Shown here: positions 3,973-14,227 of the stretch, piece by piece
Numbering within the stretch: position 1 is the stretch's first letter
How the letters are laid out: the number at the start of each line of letters is the position of its first letter
Assembly: GCA_046758445.1 (NCBI GenBank)
Contig: JBHIAE010000067.1
Coordinates: 1-14,227, forward strand
Length of the DNA: 14,227 nt
Source: Candidatus Thorarchaeota archaeon
GTDB lineage: Archaea; Asgardarchaeota; Thorarchaeia; Thorarchaeales; Thorarchaeaceae
Reading direction: 5' to 3'
Notes under the pieces: generated by a model
Told to the model about the DNA's origin: nothing
What the model saw: only the letters and a program-made list of their open reading frames with translations
Database searches by the model: none
Program-made: the position numbers and the translations under genes

Positions 3973-5631
3973 ATGGGTCTTGAGTTCAAGCATAAAGCAA
4001 TAGTTCTGAGTGGAGTGGCAGGTACCAGACTCAAGACTAAAGTCCTAGGAAGGTACTATCGCTTCTGGCACTCAGTTCAATCAGGGGGTAAACGAGGAAG
4101 CTACCGTTATCCCACCTCAATAATAGATCTAAATGCTGGCACAGGCCTTCTCTATATCAATGAGGAGCGTGAGATTATTTATGGGTCAGCAGGACATGCA
4201 TTAGAACTGAAGTATAAGTCAATAGACATCGGGACAAAGAATCTTAGCGTCTTTCTTGTAGAAGAACACGATAAGTGCAGGGAGTACCTGCTTGAAAATA
4301 TAGAGGAGGAATGGGATGTCAAGCTCCAACAACAGAAGGGCATTAGCTATCCTGTCTGGACAAATGGGGCTGTCTGGCTTTTTGAGTCAGTAAAAGACTT
4401 CCTAGAGTTCACTGAATCTGGTTCAATGATTGATAGAGGTCTATTCTTGTTCGACCCACTTCTAGCTCCAGAATATGCAGTCATCGAAAGGGTAGCTAAA
4501 AGTAGAATAAGCATTCCCTTTCAGAGAGGAACTGAGTTCATTCTCTTCTTCTTCACCTCAGACTGGGTAAATGGAAGGAAGGGCTTCTCGCCACTACCAA
4601 GAGATGCTGATGAAAGCAAATGGAAAAAAGGAGAAACAGGGAGCGCACAGATAGCCGATGTCGCGTTTGGAAATCGGGCATGGCTCAGAGTAATGGAGAT
4701 GAATGGTTCATCTGATGTACTTCAAGACTCGCTCCTATTAGCCTATGAGATGAAACTAAGGAAATGGTTCAGGCTAGTATTACCAATACCATTTCAGCCC
4801 AAGAAAGGCCAGACTTACCACATTCTGTGCTGCTCAAACTACGAGGTGGGGATAAATCTAATTCGTTCCGAGTGGGAACACCTTGTCGGGATACACAAAG
4901 GTGAGAGAGTCCGCTCTGGAGTAATTGACCTGGCCAAGGATGTTTTTCCGCGATTCTCTGCTGAATATCCAGGGATAATGCTCTCAAGAAAGAAGGGGCA
5001 AAAACGACCCTCGGAATGGAGGGTCCTGTGGAAGGTTGCGAGAGAGTTCGCTGACGGAACCTGTGATCAGAACTGCAAGAGTCTAATCGATATTGCAGGA
5101 AGCTCTGCAGAAGTTGAGCGGTGTCTAGAATGGTCTGAGTCTGAAGGATTCCTCACTAGAGAAACCAAGATTCCATGGGCATGGGCAAAGCATCCTCAGT
5201 TTCCAAGATTTCGCGCGAACTACAACCGTCTAAACGAAGTGCTTGGAATATCGCTTCCTCTTCCAATGCGACCTTTGACAGCAGACGCATTGGCCTTCCA
5301 AAAAGGGGAACAAGATACTGAGTTCCTAAGCCCAAGAATCGATGGTCTTGAGATTGATGTAAGGTTCCGTTGCCCGAAATGTAATGATCTGGTTGTTTCG
5401 GATGGAGCGATTACGATTCTCCCACCATATTTTGCTGCTGATTCTGATGCTAAGTCAATACGGGAAGATTGGGAAACATTATGGTGCCAGAACAGAGATT
5501 GTGAGGAAGAGTATTCTCTACATTGGGTCCATTCAATGTATACTGGGCTCTACTTCCGAATTGAGGACACAAAGAAAGATCATCCCTTCTGGTACAGGGA
5601 ATTATCACTGTACGAAGATGAAGAACCATAG
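3973..5631 (+). CDS. tcmP: Three-Cys-motif partner protein TcmP-like (SAM-binding methyltransferase fold + winged helix) with C-terminal Zn-ribbon extension
   Basis: N-terminal K..VL..YY..W; motif-I-like IIDLNAGTG; GSAGHAL; LVEEH; LFLFDP; TEFILFF; YHILCCSN..G. Adjacent to a three-Cys radical SAM gene, as is typical for the family. C-terminal CPKC...CQNRDC. Confidence 0.75.
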   Translation: MGLEFKHKAIVLSGVAGTRLKTKVLGRYYRFWHSVQSGGKRGSYRYPTSIIDLNAGTGLLYINEEREIIYGSAGHALELKYKSIDIGTKNLSVFLVEEHDKCREYLLENIEEEWDVKLQQQKGISYPVWTNGAVWLFESVKDFLEFTESGSMIDRGLFLFDPLLAPEYAVIERVAKSRISIPFQRGTEFILFFFTSDWVNGRKGFSPLPRDADESKWKKGETGSAQIADVAFGNRAWLRVMEMNGSSDVLQDSLLLAYEMKLRKWFRLVLPIPFQPKKGQTYHILCCSNYEVGINLIRSEWEHLVGIHKGERVRSGVIDLAKDVFPRFSAEYPGIMLSRKKGQKRPSEWRVLWKVAREFADGTCDQNCKSLIDIAGSSAEVERCLEWSESEGFLTRETKIPWAWAKHPQFPRFRANYNRLNEVLGISLPLPMRPLTADALAFQKGEQDTEFLSPRIDGLEIDVRFRCPKCNDLVVSDGAITILPPYFAADSDAKSIREDWETLWCQNRDCEEEYSLHWVHSMYTGLYFRIEDTKKDHPFWYRELSLYEDEEP

Positions 5632-5814
5632 GTTCATTCACTGTAGAAATAATAGGGGGCTGAACTTACGAGTTTTTCAATGTGTGAGATGATGATTATT
5701 TGATGGAGTGTGTTGTGACTGACAATTGCATCATCGAGCGAACTCTTTCTCCAAGAAGCCACATCCAAGGGAGGGTGTATCCGAGCGATTAAGGGGACAT
5801 TTGCTAATTATAAG

Positions 5815-6738
5815 ATGCTTGACGGGACTTTACAGCGAAGGCTCAGAAAGATAGGAAGCGGGTCAATCATCAAGAGATTCGAAATGACGCCCTATCCTCG
5901 TAAGGAAGCTGATGTCGTCTGTCCACACTTTCTGGAGCTGAAATGGGGATACGGATGCCCATACGACTGTTCCTGGTGTTTCTTGAAGGGCACTCTTAGA
6001 ATGTTGCCTGAGAAGACTGCACCGAAGACTAAACCGAGGGATAAGGTCAAGAAGCATGTGCTGTCAGCTATCAAGTACAAATCACATCCAGAGATGTTCA
6101 ATACCGGTGAACTCTGCGACTCATTGATGGACGAGAGAGGAGCTGTGCCATTCTCAAAGTGGATAATTGATATCTTTGAGTCTCAGAATACGCACAAGGT
6201 CTTGTTCCTCACGAAGTCGTCATACGTAAAGCGACTCCTCAAAGTAGAGAAGCATAGGCAGGCTGTCATTAGTTTCAGCATCAACGCGGAGAAGGTGTCG
6301 AGGAAGTGGGAACGAGCCCCATCCGTAAGGAAGCGCATAGAAGCTGCTTCCAGACTATCAGAAGAAGGGTGGGAGGTCAGAGTGAGGATTGATCCGATGG
6401 TCCCACTTCCTGATTGGAGGGAAGCATATGCCAATCTTGTCGACCTCTTGTTCACAAGTCTGACCCCCAACAGAGTCACGCTTGGCACTCTTCGTGGACT
6501 GCAATCAACGCTGAATAACGTGAAAGACCATTCATGGATCAAGTATCTAGATGGTGACAACTCAGGTTGGGGAAAGAAGACTAATGATGATCTAAGAGAA
6601 AAGATGTACCAATGGATGTTTTCTCTATTGGAACCTCATATGTCCCTCAAGCATGTGGGCCTATGTAAGGAAACGCTCAGGATGATTCGAACATTGGGTC
6701 TTGATTTCAGGGAGCAAGTCTGCAATTGTATTCTGTGA
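5815..6738 (+). CDS. Spore-photoproduct-lyase-family (SPL-like) radical SAM protein
   Basis: Canonical CX3CX2C (GCPYDCSWCFL), FNTGELCDSL, FLTKS, SFSIN, RIEAA, RVRIDPMV, TLGTLR, C-terminal LCKE...CNC. The frame is open upstream to a CTG at 5719 (possible true start). Confidence 0.85.
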   Translation: MLDGTLQRRLRKIGSGSIIKRFEMTPYPRKEADVVCPHFLELKWGYGCPYDCSWCFLKGTLRMLPEKTAPKTKPRDKVKKHVLSAIKYKSHPEMFNTGELCDSLMDERGAVPFSKWIIDIFESQNTHKVLFLTKSSYVKRLLKVEKHRQAVISFSINAEKVSRKWERAPSVRKRIEAASRLSEEGWEVRVRIDPMVPLPDWREAYANLVDLLFTSLTPNRVTLGTLRGLQSTLNNVKDHSWIKYLDGDNSGWGKKTNDDLREKMYQWMFSLLEPHMSLKHVGLCKETLRMIRTLGLDFREQVCNCIL

Positions 6739-8069: not shown

Positions 8070-8147
8070 CGATATCCCAATAGTTCAGGGAATAGCCTAG
8101 TTCTCATATCAAGGTTCTTTCAGAAGATGTGCAGTTCGCTACCGTGA

Positions 8148-8329
8148 ATTTAGTCATTGATGTCATCCAAGGAATAGTCAAGTCGAGTCAGTTCTTCACT
8201 CACTGAAGATGGAGGCGGCGATCTGCGACAGGACCCTGACCGGTCTACCGGATGAGTCTGATAAGACCAAACGAGAGGGATTTGCATCGACTTTTCATCC
8301 CCCGTCACTATTCTAGAATGATACTAAAT
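8148..8329. other. Candidate structured non-coding element (nested multi-helix fold)
   Basis: Seven mutually compatible complementary segments found by eye in the intergenic region between divergent genes (see findings). Confidence 0.4.
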
Positions 8330-8360
8330 CATTATCATTAGAAGTCCCGTTGAAGGAATC

Positions 8361-8714
8361 ATGACAGATGATGCCAGAGCCACTGAAAAGCAGATACGGT
8401 ATATCGGATTCTTGGTCAATGGCGAATATTCTGTTCCAACTGATGCAAAGATAGTTGAAGGTTATTTAACACAATTGGGTGGAGAGTCAATTGCAGACCT
8501 CACAAAGGAAGAGGCATCGAACCTAATTGATAGGCTACAGGCAAGACCAACAGAATATTCCTTTGTCTGTGGCAGGAAAGGAATGGTTGCAAGGTGGGAA
8601 GTGGGTAAGTTCATTACTACCGGGGACCTTGAGGCGTGTTCCCATGCATGTCCACTCGAGATTGACCCCAATGGCTGTGATGAATTTCAAGACTATTATC
8701 GACAAGAAATGTAG
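8361..8714 (+). CDS. Small hypothetical protein with ATEKQ...LTKxEASxLIDxL helical module and Cys-rich C-terminus
   Basis: 117 aa. AAGGA SD before ATG. ATEKQIRYI and LTKEEASNLIDRL motif; Cys pattern C...CSHAC...C. Confidence 0.7.
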   Translation: MTDDARATEKQIRYIGFLVNGEYSVPTDAKIVEGYLTQLGGESIADLTKEEASNLIDRLQARPTEYSFVCGRKGMVARWEVGKFITTGDLEACSHACPLEIDPNGCDEFQDYYRQEM

Positions 8715-9010
8715 TGAAATGCTGAGAGGGAAGGATTTCGTTCCTGTATTCACACCCAAAATCGCAGAACTCATAAAGCTAGTTGAGTGCAAGGTCACAG
8801 TAGCGTGCTTCGGGGTAGGGTGGCAAGACTTCTGTCCATTCCTCCAAGAGAAGAATGAAAGAGGTAGTTAGAATTGGCAAATGTTAAGACATACTGGGGT
8901 CCATTAGCCAGCTGCTACAAGACTTTCCGTCGAGTCCACCATCACAGGGCTTGTGTGAAACTTGGAATCATCAATTGTATCGATTCACAAGCACCTTGAC
9001 TGTGAGGAGA

Positions 9011-10156
9011 TCAATGTCCAATGACTCGCTCCCGCGAAGTGAGCGAGTGCCTCTCTTGGCACTGATTTTCCACGACCCAAGAGACAATGACTACTCGTCT
9101 ATCCCACTCTTGCATCTCGTCCATCAATACAAGTAGAAATGGGAAATTCATGACGGAGATGTGGTAGATAGAGTCGCAATTATGCGATGCTATTGACCTC
9201 AGGATGTTGTTTCGAATGATGAACTGAAGTGCGTCTTCAGGTTTCAAGTTCTTGACACGATCTAGCTGAAAATCGGTTTCCAAAAAATACACCAGACTTC
9301 TCATCAGTATGACACAACTCAGGACGCCGTGGTCATAGGAGTCTAATGCAACCATGAACTTGTGGTAGTATTTCGGCTGGACATGTACAGCGAACTCGTC
9401 ACTACTGTCGTCAACTCTCTTGATTGATGAAGAGGTCACCTTGAGAACTTGATCGCAAATGTTCTGGAACATTGGAGATACAACATACTCAAGTTCCTTG
9501 ACTGATAGCTTGCCTATTTGCTCAAAGGTGCTACGCACTGCCCTATTAAGGTCATAGATGTTCTCAAGCGCAAGGCCAAGATCATGACAAAGGGCTATGA
9601 AGCACCACATCGCCTCCTTTTCTTCCTCAGAAATCTCGAAAGCGAACTGCTTGTCACCGATTTCTATTTCCACATCACTGAATTCAGAGTCACCACACTC
9701 GATTCTTGCGAAACCTATTGAACTGTCCGAGAATATCCGCCAGCCTAGAAGAAACGTTCTAATGACATGCACAATGTGGTCTCTCGTTCTCTCAAGAATG
9801 GGAGAAACTGACTTTTCGAAACTTCCGATCCCATCGAACACTCTAGCCAGTTTCTCCACCCCAAATGCGAAAGCATCATGATAGTCTCGTTCTCGATAGT
9901 CCTTGTGCTTGAGGTACACAATTGCATCTTGGAGCAACGTTTCCCATAATCGGAATACTTTGTCCACCTGTTCACTGAGTGGAGTGTCAGATGACAGATT
10001 ACCAATGGCCTTGAATGTTCTGTTCTGCTTGGTTGTCTTCTTACGAATCTTATCTGCGAATCCGATGAATTTGCTTCGTTTGTATTGCTGCTGAAACTCG
10101 TCAATTAGCTTCTTGTCATCTTCAACTTTGAGGAGTATTGTAGTGCTCGAAGTCAG
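9011..10156 (-). CDS. HD-domain metal-dependent phosphohydrolase
   Basis: RDHIVH...ALCHDLG...DHGVLS...IASHN...LLVLMDEMQEWDR is a full HD metal-binding set. The ORF track starts at GTG 9967, but the frame is open to CTG 10156, which overlaps the upstream stop (CTGA) 9 nt after GGAGG; 381 aa if so. Confidence 0.8.
   Translation of the reverse strand: MTSSTTILLKVEDDKKLIDEFQQQYKRSKFIGFADKIRKKTTKQNRTFKAIGNLSSDTPLSEQVDKVFRLWETLLQDAIVYLKHKDYRERDYHDAFAFGVEKLARVFDGIGSFEKSVSPILERTRDHIVHVIRTFLLGWRIFSDSSIGFARIECGDSEFSDVEIEIGDKQFAFEISEEEKEAMWCFIALCHDLGLALENIYDLNRAVRSTFEQIGKLSVKELEYVVSPMFQNICDQVLKVTSSSIKRVDDSSDEFAVHVQPKYYHKFMVALDSYDHGVLSCVILMRSLVYFLETDFQLDRVKNLKPEDALQFIIRNNILRSIASHNCDSIYHISVMNFPFLLVLMDEMQEWDRRVVIVSWVVENQCQERHSLTSRERVIGH
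9024..9048. repeat. Short inverted repeat/hairpin at the 3' end of the HD gene
   Basis: ACTCGCTC (9024-9031) / GAGCGAGT (9041-9048), perfect 8-bp arms around CCGCGAAGT. Confidence 0.55.
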
Positions 10157-11166
10157 AAGACATCGCCTCCGATCTTGGACTGCACGTAGTCTTCTCCCGT
10201 TACGACTTGATGGACGGCTCCAGCATTGGTCAATGTTTGAGCTGGACAGGCATCAAGTCCCTGTGTCGACAGCTCAGAATACATTTGCCTTGCTTGGTCT
10301 ATCTTTGCTCTAGTCCATTGACAGTTCCATGCACTCTGCAGAGACTCGTCAAAGACATTTGGCCCATCTTGTACCGTTGCCAGTTGCTTGAACGCCTCGC
10401 AAATTGCCAGTGTCCCATCTGGAAGAATCGTCATCCGACAACCAAGCGTACACTCCTTCCCCTTGGTTTGAAAACCTAAGAATGAGAATGGCGCTCCCAA
10501 CCTTAGGAATGAGCGTTTCGAGTCGTCGAAACTCCGAAGCTTCCTAAGCATTAGAGCCAAGTCATATTTAGTAGGTTCAAGAAACGTGCGATTTGTCAAA
10601 CCTCGCCCTTGAGGTACGAATCTCAAAAGGCTCAGTCGATTTACTCTTTCATTTAGGGCGATATCCACAGTTTCGGCCAAGCGCGGAATGTTCTGATGTA
10701 AAGGAACAGTGTGAATTGAACATCTCGCACCTAGGTCCCTAATCTTTCTCAATGCATCCATGGTAAGGTCGAAGCTTCCAAGAACCCCAGTCAGGCGGTC
10801 ATGAATCGTTCTAGGTCCATGAATGCCGAAAACTACTTCATCAGCCAGCGCTGCAATGGATTCTGCGAGTGGATTACCCACGACCTCCAACTTGCTGGAC
10901 GTTACCTCCGAAACAATGCCAGTGGTGTAAACGATAGCCATCAATCCACGTCTTTTGACATGTTCCAAGACTCTCAGAAATCCCGGGTACATTAGAGGCT
11001 CTCCACCCGACAAACAAATCTTCTTCCCGCCGATATCAACAGTCTGATCAACAACATCAATCCAATCGGCTTGGCTGACATAATGAGAGCATTTCGGACT
11101 GGCATCTGATGAACAGAACCCGCACCAAAGAGGGCACTTCTTAGTGAGTTCCAGTGTAATCTCCAT
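10153..11166 (-). CDS. Radical SAM protein with SPASM/twitch-type C-terminal domain
   Basis: ELTKKCPLWCGFC (CX3CX2C), LSGGEPL, HDRLTGVLGSF, RFVPQGRG, CTLG..MTILPDG...IC...NV...L...W, terminal CPAQ. SD GGGGAG upstream. Confidence 0.9.
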   Translation of the reverse strand: MEITLELTKKCPLWCGFCSSDASPKCSHYVSQADWIDVVDQTVDIGGKKICLSGGEPLMYPGFLRVLEHVKRRGLMAIVYTTGIVSEVTSSKLEVVGNPLAESIAALADEVVFGIHGPRTIHDRLTGVLGSFDLTMDALRKIRDLGARCSIHTVPLHQNIPRLAETVDIALNERVNRLSLLRFVPQGRGLTNRTFLEPTKYDLALMLRKLRSFDDSKRSFLRLGAPFSFLGFQTKGKECTLGCRMTILPDGTLAICEAFKQLATVQDGPNVFDESLQSAWNCQWTRAKIDQARQMYSELSTQGLDACPAQTLTNAGAVHQVVTGEDYVQSKIGGDVF

Positions 11167-11178
11167 GTCTACTCCCCT

Positions 11179-11802
11179 CTATCCATTCTGAAGTGTTCTC
11201 GCAGTTCGAATAAGGTTTCTGAAGTAAGTAGGATATCTCTCTCTAGGAAGATGACCACCTCCACCTCGAACTGAATACCCAGGATGATATGCATGTACTA
11301 TGCGTGTGCCACATTCCATACGCAGTCTGCGTATCAGAGCACTCAAGTTTCCTCGCGCAAACTGTTCCCAGACTGTCCGCCCCAGTGCCACTACTAGTTC
11401 TGGTCGTATCAAGTCGAGTTCTTCCATCAGATACTCAGTGCAATTCTTGATCTCTTCTCTTGTGGGTGGTCTGTTTCTCCCAGTGGAGTCTTGTGGATTA
11501 CATTTGACGATATTTGTAACAAAGGCGATGAGGCGTGGATGCTTAAGAGTGGGTTCTGATTCTCTCGATAGTCCAGACAGAATCATCGCTTCCTGCAAGA
11601 GCCTTCCTGACGGGTCTCCCGTAAAGGGAATGCCTGTTTTATCTGCACCATTCCTGCCAGGAGCAAGTCCAACGAGCATGATGGCACTATCTGGCTTTCC
11701 ATATCCGGGAACAATCCTTTTTCGTGTCTTCACCAGTTCTGGACATCTGCTACAGCATACTCTTTTGCACCTGTCAAGCATGGTTCCTTGTTCCGCCTCC
11801 AT
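11179..11802 (-). CDS. udg: Uracil-DNA glycosylase superfamily protein, family-5 (UdgB)-like, 4Fe-4S
   Basis: CSRC...PGYG...MLVGLAPGRNGADKTGIPFTGD (family-5-like motif A), TNIVKC.P...NRPPT.EEI.NC, VVALG, YHP motif B. Start may be the second Met (MLDRC). Confidence 0.88.
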   Translation of the reverse strand: MEAEQGTMLDRCKRVCCSRCPELVKTRKRIVPGYGKPDSAIMLVGLAPGRNGADKTGIPFTGDPSGRLLQEAMILSGLSRESEPTLKHPRLIAFVTNIVKCNPQDSTGRNRPPTREEIKNCTEYLMEELDLIRPELVVALGRTVWEQFARGNLSALIRRLRMECGTRIVHAYHPGYSVRGGGGHLPRERYPTYFRNLIRTARTLQNG

Positions 11803-12268: not shown

Positions 12269-12397
12269 CATATGGTGGCATCAAGTGAAATTCTGTGAAA
12301 AAAGAAGATGTGGCAACATGTAGGGTGTGTAAGTACCGAGCTTCGGCGAGGTATTCAGCTCACCGCTACTAATGTCCGAGGCGTGTAGTTTGAAAAC

Positions 12398-12427
12398 GTG
12401 ATTCGCGCAGTACCTAGAGTTGTCAAG
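12398..12427 (+). repeat. 30-bp direct repeat, copy 1
   Basis: GTGATTCGCGCAGTACCTAGAGTTGTCAAG; 29/30 identical to 14198-14227. Confidence 0.9.
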
Positions 12428-12522
12428 GTTTGAGTAGTTGTAAAGTGATTGCTTCCATCCTATGCAGGTCAACCTCAATGGTGTCTTCATTTCCACATTG
12501 ACTGATAACATGAGAATTCATC

Positions 12523-14138: not shown

Positions 14139-14221
14139 AACTCCTTAGTACTGAGTTACTTCTTGCTGTGAGTGTTTGAACAACCACGTCAAGAGAAGTG
14201 ACTCGCGCAGTACCTAGAGTT
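14139..14221 (+). repeat. Long imperfect inverted repeat bounded by AAC...GTT (attC-like hairpin)
   Basis: AACTC/GAGTT; TAGTACTG/CAGTACCTA (one extra base); GAGTTACTTC/GAAGTGACTC (one G-T); TTG/CAA; inner GTG/CAC. Confidence 0.6.
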
Positions 14222-14227
14222 GTCAAG
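14198..14227 (+). repeat. 30-bp direct repeat, copy 2 (runs to the window edge)
   Basis: GTGACTCGCGCAGTACCTAGAGTTGTCAAG, exactly 1800 bp from copy 1. Confidence 0.9.

What the first reader, a model, noticed from the sequence alone, without database searches (positions are those of the whole stretch)
9011..11802. UDG family-5-like + radical SAM/SPASM + HD phosphohydrolase operon: candidate novel base-modification or antiviral nucleotide system
Seen: three tightly linked minus-strand genes (12-nt gap with SD, then a 4-nt CTGA overlap). Known: family-5 UDGs excise uracil and other damaged bases; HD enzymes hydrolyse nucleotide phosphoesters. The UDG-linked radical SAM system I know (TIGR03916/TIGR03915) uses a different radical SAM family, not a SPASM/twitch-type enzyme. 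Inference: a pathway that recognises modified bases (e.g. in viral DNA) and makes or destroys an unusual nucleotide. No precursor peptide is evident, which argues against RiPP maturation. I do not recognise this trio as a described system.
Basis: partly seen in the sequence, partly recalled or inferred. Interest (0 to 1): 0.72.

Follow-up and report, generated by a model that had tools for sequence, protein, structure and literature searches.

The report
Radical-SAM, HD-like, uracil-glycosylase gene module
Three linked archaeal genes belong to a widespread, horizontally mobile and apparently undescribed enzyme module that probably acts on uracil-type nucleotides or DNA bases in virus-host conflict, but the copy in this window has a damaged third gene.

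Summary
The three minus-strand genes are real. They are a Fe-S uracil-DNA-glycosylase (UDG) relative (11802-11179), a radical SAM enzyme (11166-10153) and an unannotated HD-superfamily protein (10156-9011). The 12-nt gap and the CTGA overlap are as described.

The trio recurs widely:
- All 36 related loci with enough flank have this radical SAM family next to the HD-like gene.
- Six database proteins are fusions of the two.
- The third gene is interchangeable: UDG in 17 loci, DUF2284 in 16 and never both, 5-hmdU DNA kinase in 2, and one locus with none of these. It was swapped at least 7 times on the HD-like tree.
- The module occurs in anaerobic archaea and bacteria, patchily (7 of 87 genomes of this class). 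Restriction, TIR and Abi genes are among its variable neighbours, and it usually sits under a small HTH regulator.

Pfam, NCBIfam and PADLOC have no model for the HD-like protein or the system, and I found no paper describing it. The function is inferred, not shown. The most likely role is a pyrimidine nucleotide or DNA-base directed conflict system.

This window's copy looks decayed. CTG replaces the ATG start, and the conserved C-terminal ~120 residues are missing beyond position 9098.

Earlier agents of this scan found the same module on other genomes.

The parts
11179..11802 (-). Fe-S uracil-DNA-glycosylase superfamily protein (207 aa). It belongs to a cassette-specific subfamily with the motifs GLAPGRxGAD..PFTxD, TNxVKCNP and HP(G/S)Y.
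   Evidence: Pfam UDG 97.5 bits. TIGR00758 (family 4) scores 102.5, below its cut-off of 125.3. The closest solved structures are family 4 (1vk2, 2e-35), then family 5 (2d3y, 9e-24). Four Cys (C17, C20, C101, C121), D63 and H173 are invariant in 12 cassette UDGs.
11167..11178 (-). 12-nt spacer AGGGGAGTAGAC with a Shine-Dalgarno-like purine run, between the UDG stop and the rSAM start.
   Evidence: Read directly from the sequence.
10153..11166 (-). Radical SAM enzyme (337 aa) with CX3CX2C (C11, C15, C18), an SGGEP motif, an RFVPQGRG motif and a reduced, twitch-like C-terminal Fe-S domain that keeps only C239, C256 and C307.
   Evidence: Pfam Radical_SAM 5e-15. The best NCBIfam hit is PqqE at 83 bits against a cut-off of 381. 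The profile against the PDB gives PqqE 6c8v at 1e-35. The alignment of 21 orthologues shows that most have a full CxxCx5C...GC SPASM motif, which is lost here and in L001.
9098..10156 (-). HD-superfamily-like protein; the homologous part covers residues 1-353 of a roughly 475-aa family. CTG (10156-10154) stands where the relative has ATG, and the next canonical start is GTG at 9967.
   Evidence: 100 homologues, mostly of about 400-550 aa, none with a Pfam domain. H127, H130, H191-D192, H324, D345 and E349 are invariant and H275 nearly so (L001 numbering). AF2 model of the L001 orthologue has pLDDT 87.5. VIA-align top hits are nearly all HD or PDE folds: 1zkn Z 9.7, rmsd 5.2 over 229 residues; 6pbz Z 9.0, rmsd 3.6 over 170. 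The ATG in L001 lies at the CTG position.
9011..9097 (-). Unrelated 28-codon tail plus stop that follows the breakpoint. It replaces the conserved C-terminal domain (about 120 aa) of the family.
   Evidence: tblastn and blastn homology to L001 and others ends at 9098/9097. The own-genome profile match covers positions 6-348 of 465, whereas four other close copies in genomes of this class (Thorarchaeota by the record titles) reach positions 447-463. The sequences diverge right after GAGTGGGATAGAC.
12300..12480 (.). Dispersed intergenic repeat upstream of the trio. This is context, not part of the module. A second partial copy lies at the contig end (14198-14227).
   Evidence: One search finds the 30-nt repeat at 12398-12427 and 14198-14227. 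Six copies occur in the genome on four contigs. Copies also lie on either side of the cassette region in L001.

Best explanation
The trio is one copy of a widespread, horizontally mobile three-part enzyme module of anaerobic archaea and bacteria. No database used here and no paper I found describes it.

Its invariant core has two parts that work together and are sometimes fused into one protein: a radical SAM enzyme of the SPASM/twitch type, and a new HD-superfamily protein with a probable two-metal phosphohydrolase-type site. The third part is interchangeable. It is a Fe-S UDG with a family-5-type active-site motif (as here), a DUF2284 Cys-rich protein, or a 5-hydroxymethyl-dU DNA kinase, sometimes with Nmad2, TIR or SLATT genes.

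Inferred mechanism, none of it shown. The radical SAM enzyme does radical chemistry on a pyrimidine (uracil or 5-substituted-uracil type) deoxynucleotide or DNA base. The HD-like partner processes the phosphate ester of the substrate or product, much as OxsA serves OxsB. The UDG-type partner recognises or excises the corresponding uracil-type base in DNA. The overall role is most likely defence against viruses or other mobile DNA.

In this window the module is probably decaying. The third gene has CTG in place of ATG and has lost its conserved C-terminal domain at a sharp breakpoint (9098).
For: Shown:
- The genes and their coupling are as described.
- The rSAM and HD-like genes are adjacent in 36 of 36 loci with at least 2.5 kb flanks. 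The third gene is UDG in 17 and DUF2284 in 16, never both. Two of the three remaining loci carry HMUDK_hel at 1e-111 and 8e-114.
- One locus reads TIR, Nmad2, HMUDK, rSAM, HD-like (L033).
- Six rSAM-HD fusion proteins exist whose rSAM halves score 73-349 bits against the cassette rSAM profile.
- On the HD-like tree the partner changes at least 7 times. This includes sister clades at 100% support in Thorarchaeota (window and L001 with UDG against L002, L006 and L034 with DUF2284) and in Bathyarchaeia.
- The distribution is patchy: 7 of 87 genomes of the class and 2 of 17 of the genus. Archaeal and bacterial hosts are intermixed.
- The family has 656 clusters at E<=1e-10 and 454 stretches in metagenomes.
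- Among 145 flanking ORFs the neighbours vary and include Type I/III restriction, N6 methylases, ThsB-TIR, AbiEii-type ATPases and dCTP-deaminase-like proteins.
- HTH regulators lie beside the cassette: divergent XRE-type in 18 loci and small wHTH in about 22.
- The HD fold and motifs are supported.
- The UDG keeps its Fe-S cysteines, the Asp equivalent to TthUDGB D75 and the motif-B His.
- Decay of this copy is documented.

Precedent from papers: a 5-hydroxymethyluracil kinase system was validated as anti-phage, and UDG, NMAD and MazG systems were predicted (PMC13092281).
Against: - No biochemical or phage-challenge data exist for any member.
- The defence context has no statistical control.
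- DUF2284, which swaps with the UDG, did not model as a glycosylase fold. Its best matches are weak nitroreductase, CblC and MetH-activation-domain-like ones (Z<=6.7). A common DNA-base role for all third parts is therefore not established.
- The closest solved relatives of the rSAM are peptide-modifying enzymes (PqqE, SkfB, SuiB).
- The window lacks the HTH regulator seen in most relatives.
- CTG can serve as a start in table 11, and the HD catalytic core is retained, so the copy could still be partly active.
- The 9098 junction could be a misassembly of this MAG contig.
Confidence: 0.5

Rival explanations
1. A housekeeping-type DNA repair module of anaerobes. The radical SAM enzyme reverses or processes a DNA lesion as spore photoproduct lyase does, the UDG excises damaged pyrimidines, and the HD-like enzyme cleans the phosphate ends.
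For: Family 4 and 5 UDGs are established repair enzymes, and the cassette UDG keeps their catalytic and Fe-S residues. Spore photoproduct lyase is a radical SAM enzyme that acts on DNA (PMC8989533). All hosts are anaerobes.
Against: The module is patchy: 7 of 87 genomes of the class. It transfers across domains and its partner is swapped repeatedly. Its flanks vary and contain restriction, TIR and Abi genes. It is under dedicated repressors. The UDG can be replaced by 5-hmdU DNA kinase, Nmad2 and TIR or SLATT genes, which are not repair functions.
Confidence: 0.15
2. A DNA hypermodification (epigenetic marking) system. The rSAM and HD-like pair builds a modified thymidine or uracil derivative in the element's or host's own DNA, as in phage thymidine hypermodification. 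The third gene prepares or proofreads the target base.
For: The module is associated with 5-hmdU DNA kinase and Nmad2 in some loci. A radical SAM isomerase takes part in phage M6 thymidine hypermodification (PMC8989533). The architecture, an invariant core with a swappable accessory, resembles modification-restriction systems (inference).
Against: Only 1 related locus turned up in 2.9 million viral contigs, and there are no PHROG matches for the HD-like protein. No dUMP hydroxymethylase or aGPT-Pplase was seen beside the cassette. The M6 enzyme is SPL-like, not SPASM-type.
Confidence: 0.15
3. A peptide (RiPP) or cofactor maturation cassette. The SPASM radical SAM enzyme cross-links a small peptide or builds a cofactor, and the other two genes are tailoring enzymes.
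For: The closest characterised relatives of the rSAM are PqqE, SkfB and SuiB. Small ORFs of 70-96 aa often lie just upstream in relatives.
Against: Those small ORFs hit winged-helix or XRE DNA-binding families, mostly weakly, and they are not one family. The window has none. All NCBIfam maturase scores are far below their cut-offs. The partners are a DNA glycosylase or a DNA kinase.
Confidence: 0.05

Closest known systems
OxsB/OxsA of oxetanocin-A biosynthesis (radical SAM enzyme plus HD-domain phosphohydrolase acting together on deoxyadenosine phosphates; from my own knowledge, and cited as reference 31 in PMC8989533)
   Same: A radical SAM enzyme is obligatorily paired with an HD-type protein. 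Here the two are always adjacent and are fused six times.
   Different: OxsB is cobalamin-dependent, and no B12-binding domain is detected here. The HD-like protein is about 475 aa, matches no Pfam HD model and carries an extra C-terminal domain. A third DNA-base gene is attached. No sequence relationship was shown.
TIGR03916/TIGR03915/TIGR03914: 'putative DNA modification/repair radical SAM protein' linked to a UdgX-type UDG domain protein
   Same: A radical SAM enzyme is genetically linked to a Fe-S UDG-superfamily protein.
   Different: The window UDG scores 78.5 against TIGR03914, whose cut-off is 189.95. TIGR03916 is not among the 25 best of the rSAM's 49 NCBIfam hits, the only ones listed. 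That system has no HD-like partner.
Family 4 (UDGa) and family 5 (UDGb) uracil-DNA glycosylases (1ui0, 1vk2, 4zbx; 2d3y)
   Same: The fold is shared, along with four Fe-S cysteines and the motif-B His. Motif A is GLAPG..PFTGD, as in family 5, including the Asp that aligns with TthUDGB D75.
   Different: The scores fall below the NCBIfam family-4 cut-offs. Overall sequence is nearer family 4 while motif A is family-5-like. The protein forms a distinct cassette-linked subfamily.
Anti-phage system containing a 5-hydroxymethyluracil kinase validated by DefensePredictor, and the predicted NMAD, UDG and MazG systems (PMC13092281)
   Same: Some relatives of the rSAM and HD-like pair sit in one gene string with TIR, Nmad2 and 5-hmdU DNA kinase (L033). 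The logic, nucleotide or base-modifying enzymes used in defence, is the same.
   Different: That paper does not mention radical SAM (0 occurrences). The window itself has no kinase, Nmad2 or TIR gene.
Prokaryotic viperins (pVip)
   Same: A radical SAM enzyme is used in defence by making altered nucleotides. There are weak PADLOC hits (2.7e-9).
   Different: The hits cover only residues 3-85, the generic Fe-S/SAM core. Viperins have no SPASM/twitch domain and no HD-like or UDG partner.

Membership tests
UDG superfamily (PF03167) | Pfam score above the gathering threshold | tested here: met
   97.5 bits against 24.3
Family 4 UDG (TIGR00758 / NF040953) | Score above the curated cut-off | tested here: not met
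   102.5 against 125.3, and 100.9 against 250
Family 4 UDG | Motif A is GE(G/A)PG | tested here: not met
   The window has GLAPG. Family-4 structures align GEGPG at that place.
Family 4/5 UDG | Four cysteines that ligate a 4Fe-4S cluster | tested here: met
   C17, C20, C101 and C121 are invariant in 12 cassette UDGs. Cluster binding itself was not tested.
Family 5 UDG (UDGb) | GLAPG-type motif A and the catalytic Asp of the FTGD motif (TthUDGB D75) | tested here: met
   The alignment to 2d3y places GLAPG..PFTGD opposite GLAPGAHG..PFTGD, and D63 is invariant.
Family 5 UDG (UDGb) | Closest overall sequence relationship | tested here: inconclusive
   The profile E-value to 2d3y is 9e-24, with only the first 120 residues aligned. 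Family 4 structures score 2e-35 over the full length.
UdgX-linked radical SAM system (TIGR03914/03915/03916) | UDG domain above the TIGR03914 cut-off, and an rSAM of TIGR03916 | tested here: not met
   78.5 against 189.95. TIGR03916 is not among the 25 best of the 49 rSAM hits, the only ones listed.
Radical SAM superfamily | CX3CX2C motif and a PF04055 match | tested here: met
   C11, C15 and C18 are invariant. PF04055 scores 56.5 bits against 29.5.
SPASM subfamily | Seven-Cys C-terminal motif binding two auxiliary clusters (PF13186) | tested here: not met
   The window protein keeps only C239, C256 and C307 and has no PF13186 hit. Most orthologues and four of the five fusions with a Pfam radical SAM hit do have the motif. 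The family is therefore SPASM-type and this copy is twitch-like.
PqqE (TIGR02109) | Score above the cut-off, with PqqA and PqqD partners | tested here: not met
   83 bits against 381. No pqq genes occur in the window or in related loci.
Prokaryotic viperin (PADLOC pVip) | Full-length match to the pVip models | tested here: not met
   Only residues 3-85 match, out of 257-262 model positions.
HD superfamily | Conserved H...HD...D metal-binding motif | tested here: met
   H127, H130, H191-D192, H324 and D345 are invariant and H275 is nearly so in 54 sequences. All of them lie in the part the window retains.
HD superfamily | Match to a Pfam or NCBIfam HD model | tested here: not met
   There is no hit for the window protein or for five intact relatives, even at E 0.1.
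HD superfamily | HD/PDE fold | tested here: inconclusive
   Nearly all of the 50 best VIA-align hits are HD or PDE proteins, but Z is only 9.7 (1zkn, rmsd 5.2, 229 aligned) to 5.8. Foldseek found nothing at E<=0.001.
OxsB/OxsA-type pair | Cobalamin-binding domain in the radical SAM enzyme | tested here: not met
   The only Pfam hits are Radical_SAM and Fer4_12.
5-hmdU-kinase/Nmad2/TIR defence systems | Presence of HMUDK_hel, Nmad2 and TIR genes | tested here: not met
   The window has none. They are present beside the rSAM and HD-like pair in L033, L107 and L111.

The most novel reading that the evidence does not exclude
The rSAM and HD-like pair is a new kind of enzyme couple that performs radical chemistry on a uracil-type deoxynucleotide or directly on a base in DNA. 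That would make it only the third radical SAM class known to act on DNA, after spore photoproduct lyase and phage M6 gp53. It would also be the engine of a new, cross-domain family of antiviral systems whose swappable third parts (UDG, DUF2284, 5-hmdU DNA kinase) set target or effector specificity.
Probability: 0.3. Interest if true: 0.85.

Novelty: new variant of a known kind. Interest (0 to 1): 0.58.

Why it matters
If the inferred role holds, this is a large module: 656 sequence clusters, found in archaea including Asgard lineages and methanogens and in anaerobic bacteria. It would couple radical SAM chemistry to nucleotide or DNA-base handling. It could reveal a new modified nucleotide or DNA base, a new use of Fe-S glycosylases in immunity, and a function for two unannotated families (the HD-like protein and DUF2284). 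A cultured carrier with a complete genome exists (Methanolobus sp. WCC5, L020), so the question is testable. For this window in particular, it also documents decay of such a module in an Asgard MAG.

Tried and rejected
- **Complex prediction.** Complex prediction of the rSAM (A7) with the HD-like protein (A2) scored 0.00. This is no verdict and is not used as evidence either way.
- **Foldseek against the PDB.** Nothing at E<=0.001 for either the HD-like model or the DUF2284 model.
- **Profile against PDB sequences.** The HD-like family gave no hit even at E 10.
- **Search for longer proteins.** The search for homologous proteins with 'longer' found no fusions. The exhaustive representative search later did find six, so the earlier negative came from the word filter.
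- **DUF2284 as a glycosylase-type protein.** This was an earlier agent's wording. My model (pLDDT 94) gave only weak nitroreductase, CblC and MetH-activation-domain-like matches and no UDG or HhH glycosylase among the top 50. That absence is not proof.
- **Virus-borne system.** Only one locus in IMG/VR and no PHROG family.
- **Second, intact copy in the genome.** None found.
- **Origin of the DNA downstream of the breakpoint.** The stretch 8070-9100 is unique in the genome, so no mobile element could be blamed for the truncation.
- **Literature.** Four searches found no description of the trio.
- **dN/dS against L001.** Synonymous sites are saturated, so only pN << pS could be stated.
- **RNA genes.** No tRNA and no Rfam family in the window.
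Full report
**1. Observation**

The window is a whole 14.2-kb contig of a MAG (3.25 Mb, 113 contigs, 92.7% complete). It is a Thorarchaeota-type genome, judged from its closest relatives.

Three ORFs follow each other on the minus strand:
- 11802..11179 (207 aa)
- 11166..10153 (337 aa)
- a frame open from 10252 that ends at 9011

The UDG stop and the rSAM ATG are 12 nt apart (AGGGGAGTAGAC). The rSAM TGA overlaps a CTG that opens the third frame.

The CTG matters. In the closest relative (L001, RDOC01000017, 74% DNA identity over the third gene) an ATG stands at exactly this position in an ATGA overlap. The 63 codons up to the window's first canonical start (GTG at 9967) are homologous to the N-termini of full-length relatives. 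They also show pN 0.23 against pS 0.91. The public annotation of L001 (412 aa) misses this N-terminus.

**2.

Homology of the third gene to every relative stops at window position 9098. After the shared GAGTGGGATAGAC the sequences diverge, and 28 unrelated codons lead to a stop.

The family profile is matched at positions 6-348 of 465 only. Four other close copies in genomes of the same class reach positions 447-463.

The missing part is a conserved beta/alpha domain of about 120 residues. It carries the invariant Arg412 and the nearly invariant LRSAV motif. No second copy exists in the genome.

Together with the ATG-to-CTG change, this copy is probably decaying. The HD core is intact, however, and CTG can initiate translation. 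A misassembly at 9098 also cannot be excluded without reads.

**3. What the three proteins are**

*UDG.* Pfam UDG scores 97.5 bits. The scores fall below the NCBIfam family-4 cut-offs. The nearest structures are family 4 (2e-35), then family 5 (9e-24), then UdgX. Motif A is GLAPGRNGAD..PFTGD. This is the family-5 form, including the Asp that aligns with TthUDGB D75. Four cysteines and the motif-B His are invariant among 12 cassette-linked UDGs, which form their own subfamily.

*Radical SAM.* The protein has CX3CX2C and SGGEP motifs. Its best NCBIfam hit is PqqE at 83 bits against a cut-off of 381, and its best solved relative is PqqE 6c8v. Most orthologues carry a full SPASM cysteine motif. 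The window and L001 keep only three C-terminal cysteines, which makes them twitch-like.

*Third protein.* It has no Pfam, NCBIfam, PADLOC or PHROG model, even for intact members. It does have conserved H..H, HD, H, H, D residues. An AF2 model of the L001 orthologue has pLDDT 87.5 and pTM 0.92. The 50 best VIA-align matches of that model are nearly all HD or PDE proteins: PDE4D Z 9.7, GppA 9.0, YhaM 8.9, SAMHD1 7.7, Cas3-HD 6.7. Foldseek alone found nothing. I call it a divergent HD-superfamily protein with a probable binuclear site.

**4. Conservation**

A scan of species-representative genomes gave 30 loci. These come from Thorarchaeota, Bathyarchaeia, Thermoproteota, Methanosarcinales/ANME-2, Methanoregula, Methanomassiliicoccales, Ignavibacteriaceae, Dehalococcoidia, Lachnospiraceae and Ruminococcus. 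A metagenome scan gave 454 stretches, of which 80 were kept.

I searched all ORFs with profiles built here. Of 36 loci with at least 2.5 kb on both sides, the results were:
- 36 have this rSAM family within 3 kb of the HD-like gene, usually overlapping it.
- 17 have the UDG.
- 16 have a DUF2284 protein, and never both UDG and DUF2284.
- 3 have neither. Two of these carry a 5-hmdU DNA kinase (HMUDK_hel, 1e-111 and 8e-114).

Gene orders vary: RHU, RUH, RHD and HDR' all occur. The URH order of the window is rare.

Other related loci add detail. L033 reads TIR, Nmad2, HMUDK, rSAM, HD-like. L109 reads Nmad2, HD-like, SLATT.

Six proteins in the exhaustive search are rSAM-HD-like fusions, with rSAM halves scoring 73-349 bits against the cassette profile. 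The family comprises 656 clusters at E<=1e-10.

On a quick maximum-likelihood tree of 85 HD-like proteins the partner label changes at least 7 times on well-supported branches. The window and L001 (UDG) are sister to three Thorarchaeota-type copies with DUF2284, at 100% support. Bacterial copies nest among archaeal ones.

**5. Context**

The module is patchy: 7 of 87 genomes of the class and 2 of 17 of the genus. Only one locus was found in 2.9 million viral contigs.

The flanks are not conserved. Among 145 flanking ORFs there are Type I/III restriction enzymes and methylases, ThsB-type TIR proteins, AbiEii-type ATPases, dCTP-deaminase-like proteins and PADLOC candidate families. I had no control for enrichment.

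Most cassettes have a dedicated HTH gene, either divergent XRE-type (18 loci) or small wHTH just upstream (about 22 loci). The window has none.

In the window the trio lies in a 46% GC stretch that follows 55% GC DNA. Its neighbours are a TcmP-like protein with an SPL-like radical SAM enzyme, and two proteins without a specific family: one has no Pfam hit and the other only HEAT repeats. A dispersed repeat lies upstream; it has six copies in the genome and also occurs in L001.

**6. Mechanism**

Shown:
- The rSAM and HD-like genes are an obligatory pair, and natural fusions exist.
- The third part is interchangeable.
- Two of the three alternative third parts, the UDG and the 5-hmdU DNA kinase, belong to families that act on uracil or 5-substituted uracil in DNA.

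Inferred:
- The pair performs radical chemistry plus phosphate-ester processing on a pyrimidine deoxynucleotide or a DNA base. OxsB/OxsA is the nearest functional analogy.
- The UDG excises or senses the corresponding base.
- The system serves in conflict with viruses or other mobile DNA.

Precedent comes from DefensePredictor, which validated a 5-hydroxymethyluracil-kinase system as anti-phage and predicted NMAD, UDG and MazG systems (PMC13092281).

The weak point is DUF2284. It swaps freely with the UDG, yet it modelled (pLDDT 94) as a weak nitroreductase, CblC or MetH-activation-domain-like fold and not as a glycosylase.

The rivals are a repair module, a self-DNA hypermodification system and RiPP or cofactor maturation. 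They are weighed in their own sections.

**7. Comparison and novelty**

The trio is not a member of the TIGR03914-03916 UDG-linked system, of PqqE, of pVip or of any PADLOC system. Four full-text searches found no description of it.

Earlier agents of this scan reported the same module on other genomes. I reproduced their main claims independently: the pairing, the fusions, the swappable partner and the HMUDK/Nmad2/TIR link. I did not reproduce the 'glycosylase-type' reading of DUF2284.

I rate the finding as a new variant of a known kind, that is, nucleotide or base-directed conflict systems built from known superfamilies. Its biochemistry is unknown. This particular copy is damaged.

Noticed in passing
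window 3973-6738 (+): A TcmP-like protein (TIGR04474, 6e-10, below its cut-off) is followed by an SPL-like radical SAM enzyme (PF20903, 3e-14). This is a second, unrelated radical-SAM pair in the same low-GC stretch.
   Followed up: no
window about 3500: GC content drops from about 55% to about 46% and stays low to the end of the contig. This suggests the right-hand 10 kb, including the trio, is acquired DNA.
   Followed up: no
window 12300-12480 and 14198-14227; L001 767-836 and 10313-10431: A dispersed intergenic repeat has six copies on four contigs of this genome and copies in the related MAG. The contig ends inside one copy. Another first-stage note reads these copies as attC-like hairpins.
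   Followed up: partly
L001 8335-9762: The public annotation of the relative's HD-like gene (412 aa) starts 63 codons too late. An ATG that overlaps the rSAM stop gives a 475-aa product that matches other family members.
   Followed up: yes
L028-L032 (Heimdallarchaeota, Promethearchaeati and Bathyarchaeia MAGs): Distant paralogues of the HD-like protein (24-28% identity) have no radical SAM neighbour. In L029-L032 they sit in a different conserved neighbourhood with proteins of about 1020, 830 and 316 aa (L028 is a short 3.8-kb contig).
   Followed up: no
L076 9205-10377; L109 1892-2347; L018 6643-6996: Three variants were seen: a cassette UDG fused to a weak SocA/Panacea-like domain; an Nmad2, HD-like, SLATT effector string; and a locus where the rSAM is reduced to a 117-aa fragment, which is another decayed copy.
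   Followed up: partly
window versus L001, the three genes: Between the same two genomes the three proteins diverge very unevenly. Identity is 79% for the HD core, 59% for the UDG and 48% for the rSAM.
   Followed up: no
window 8070-9010: The roughly 0.9 kb downstream of the breakpoint is unique in the genome and holds only short plus-strand ORFs. Another first-stage note places a structured element at 8148-8329.
   Followed up: partly
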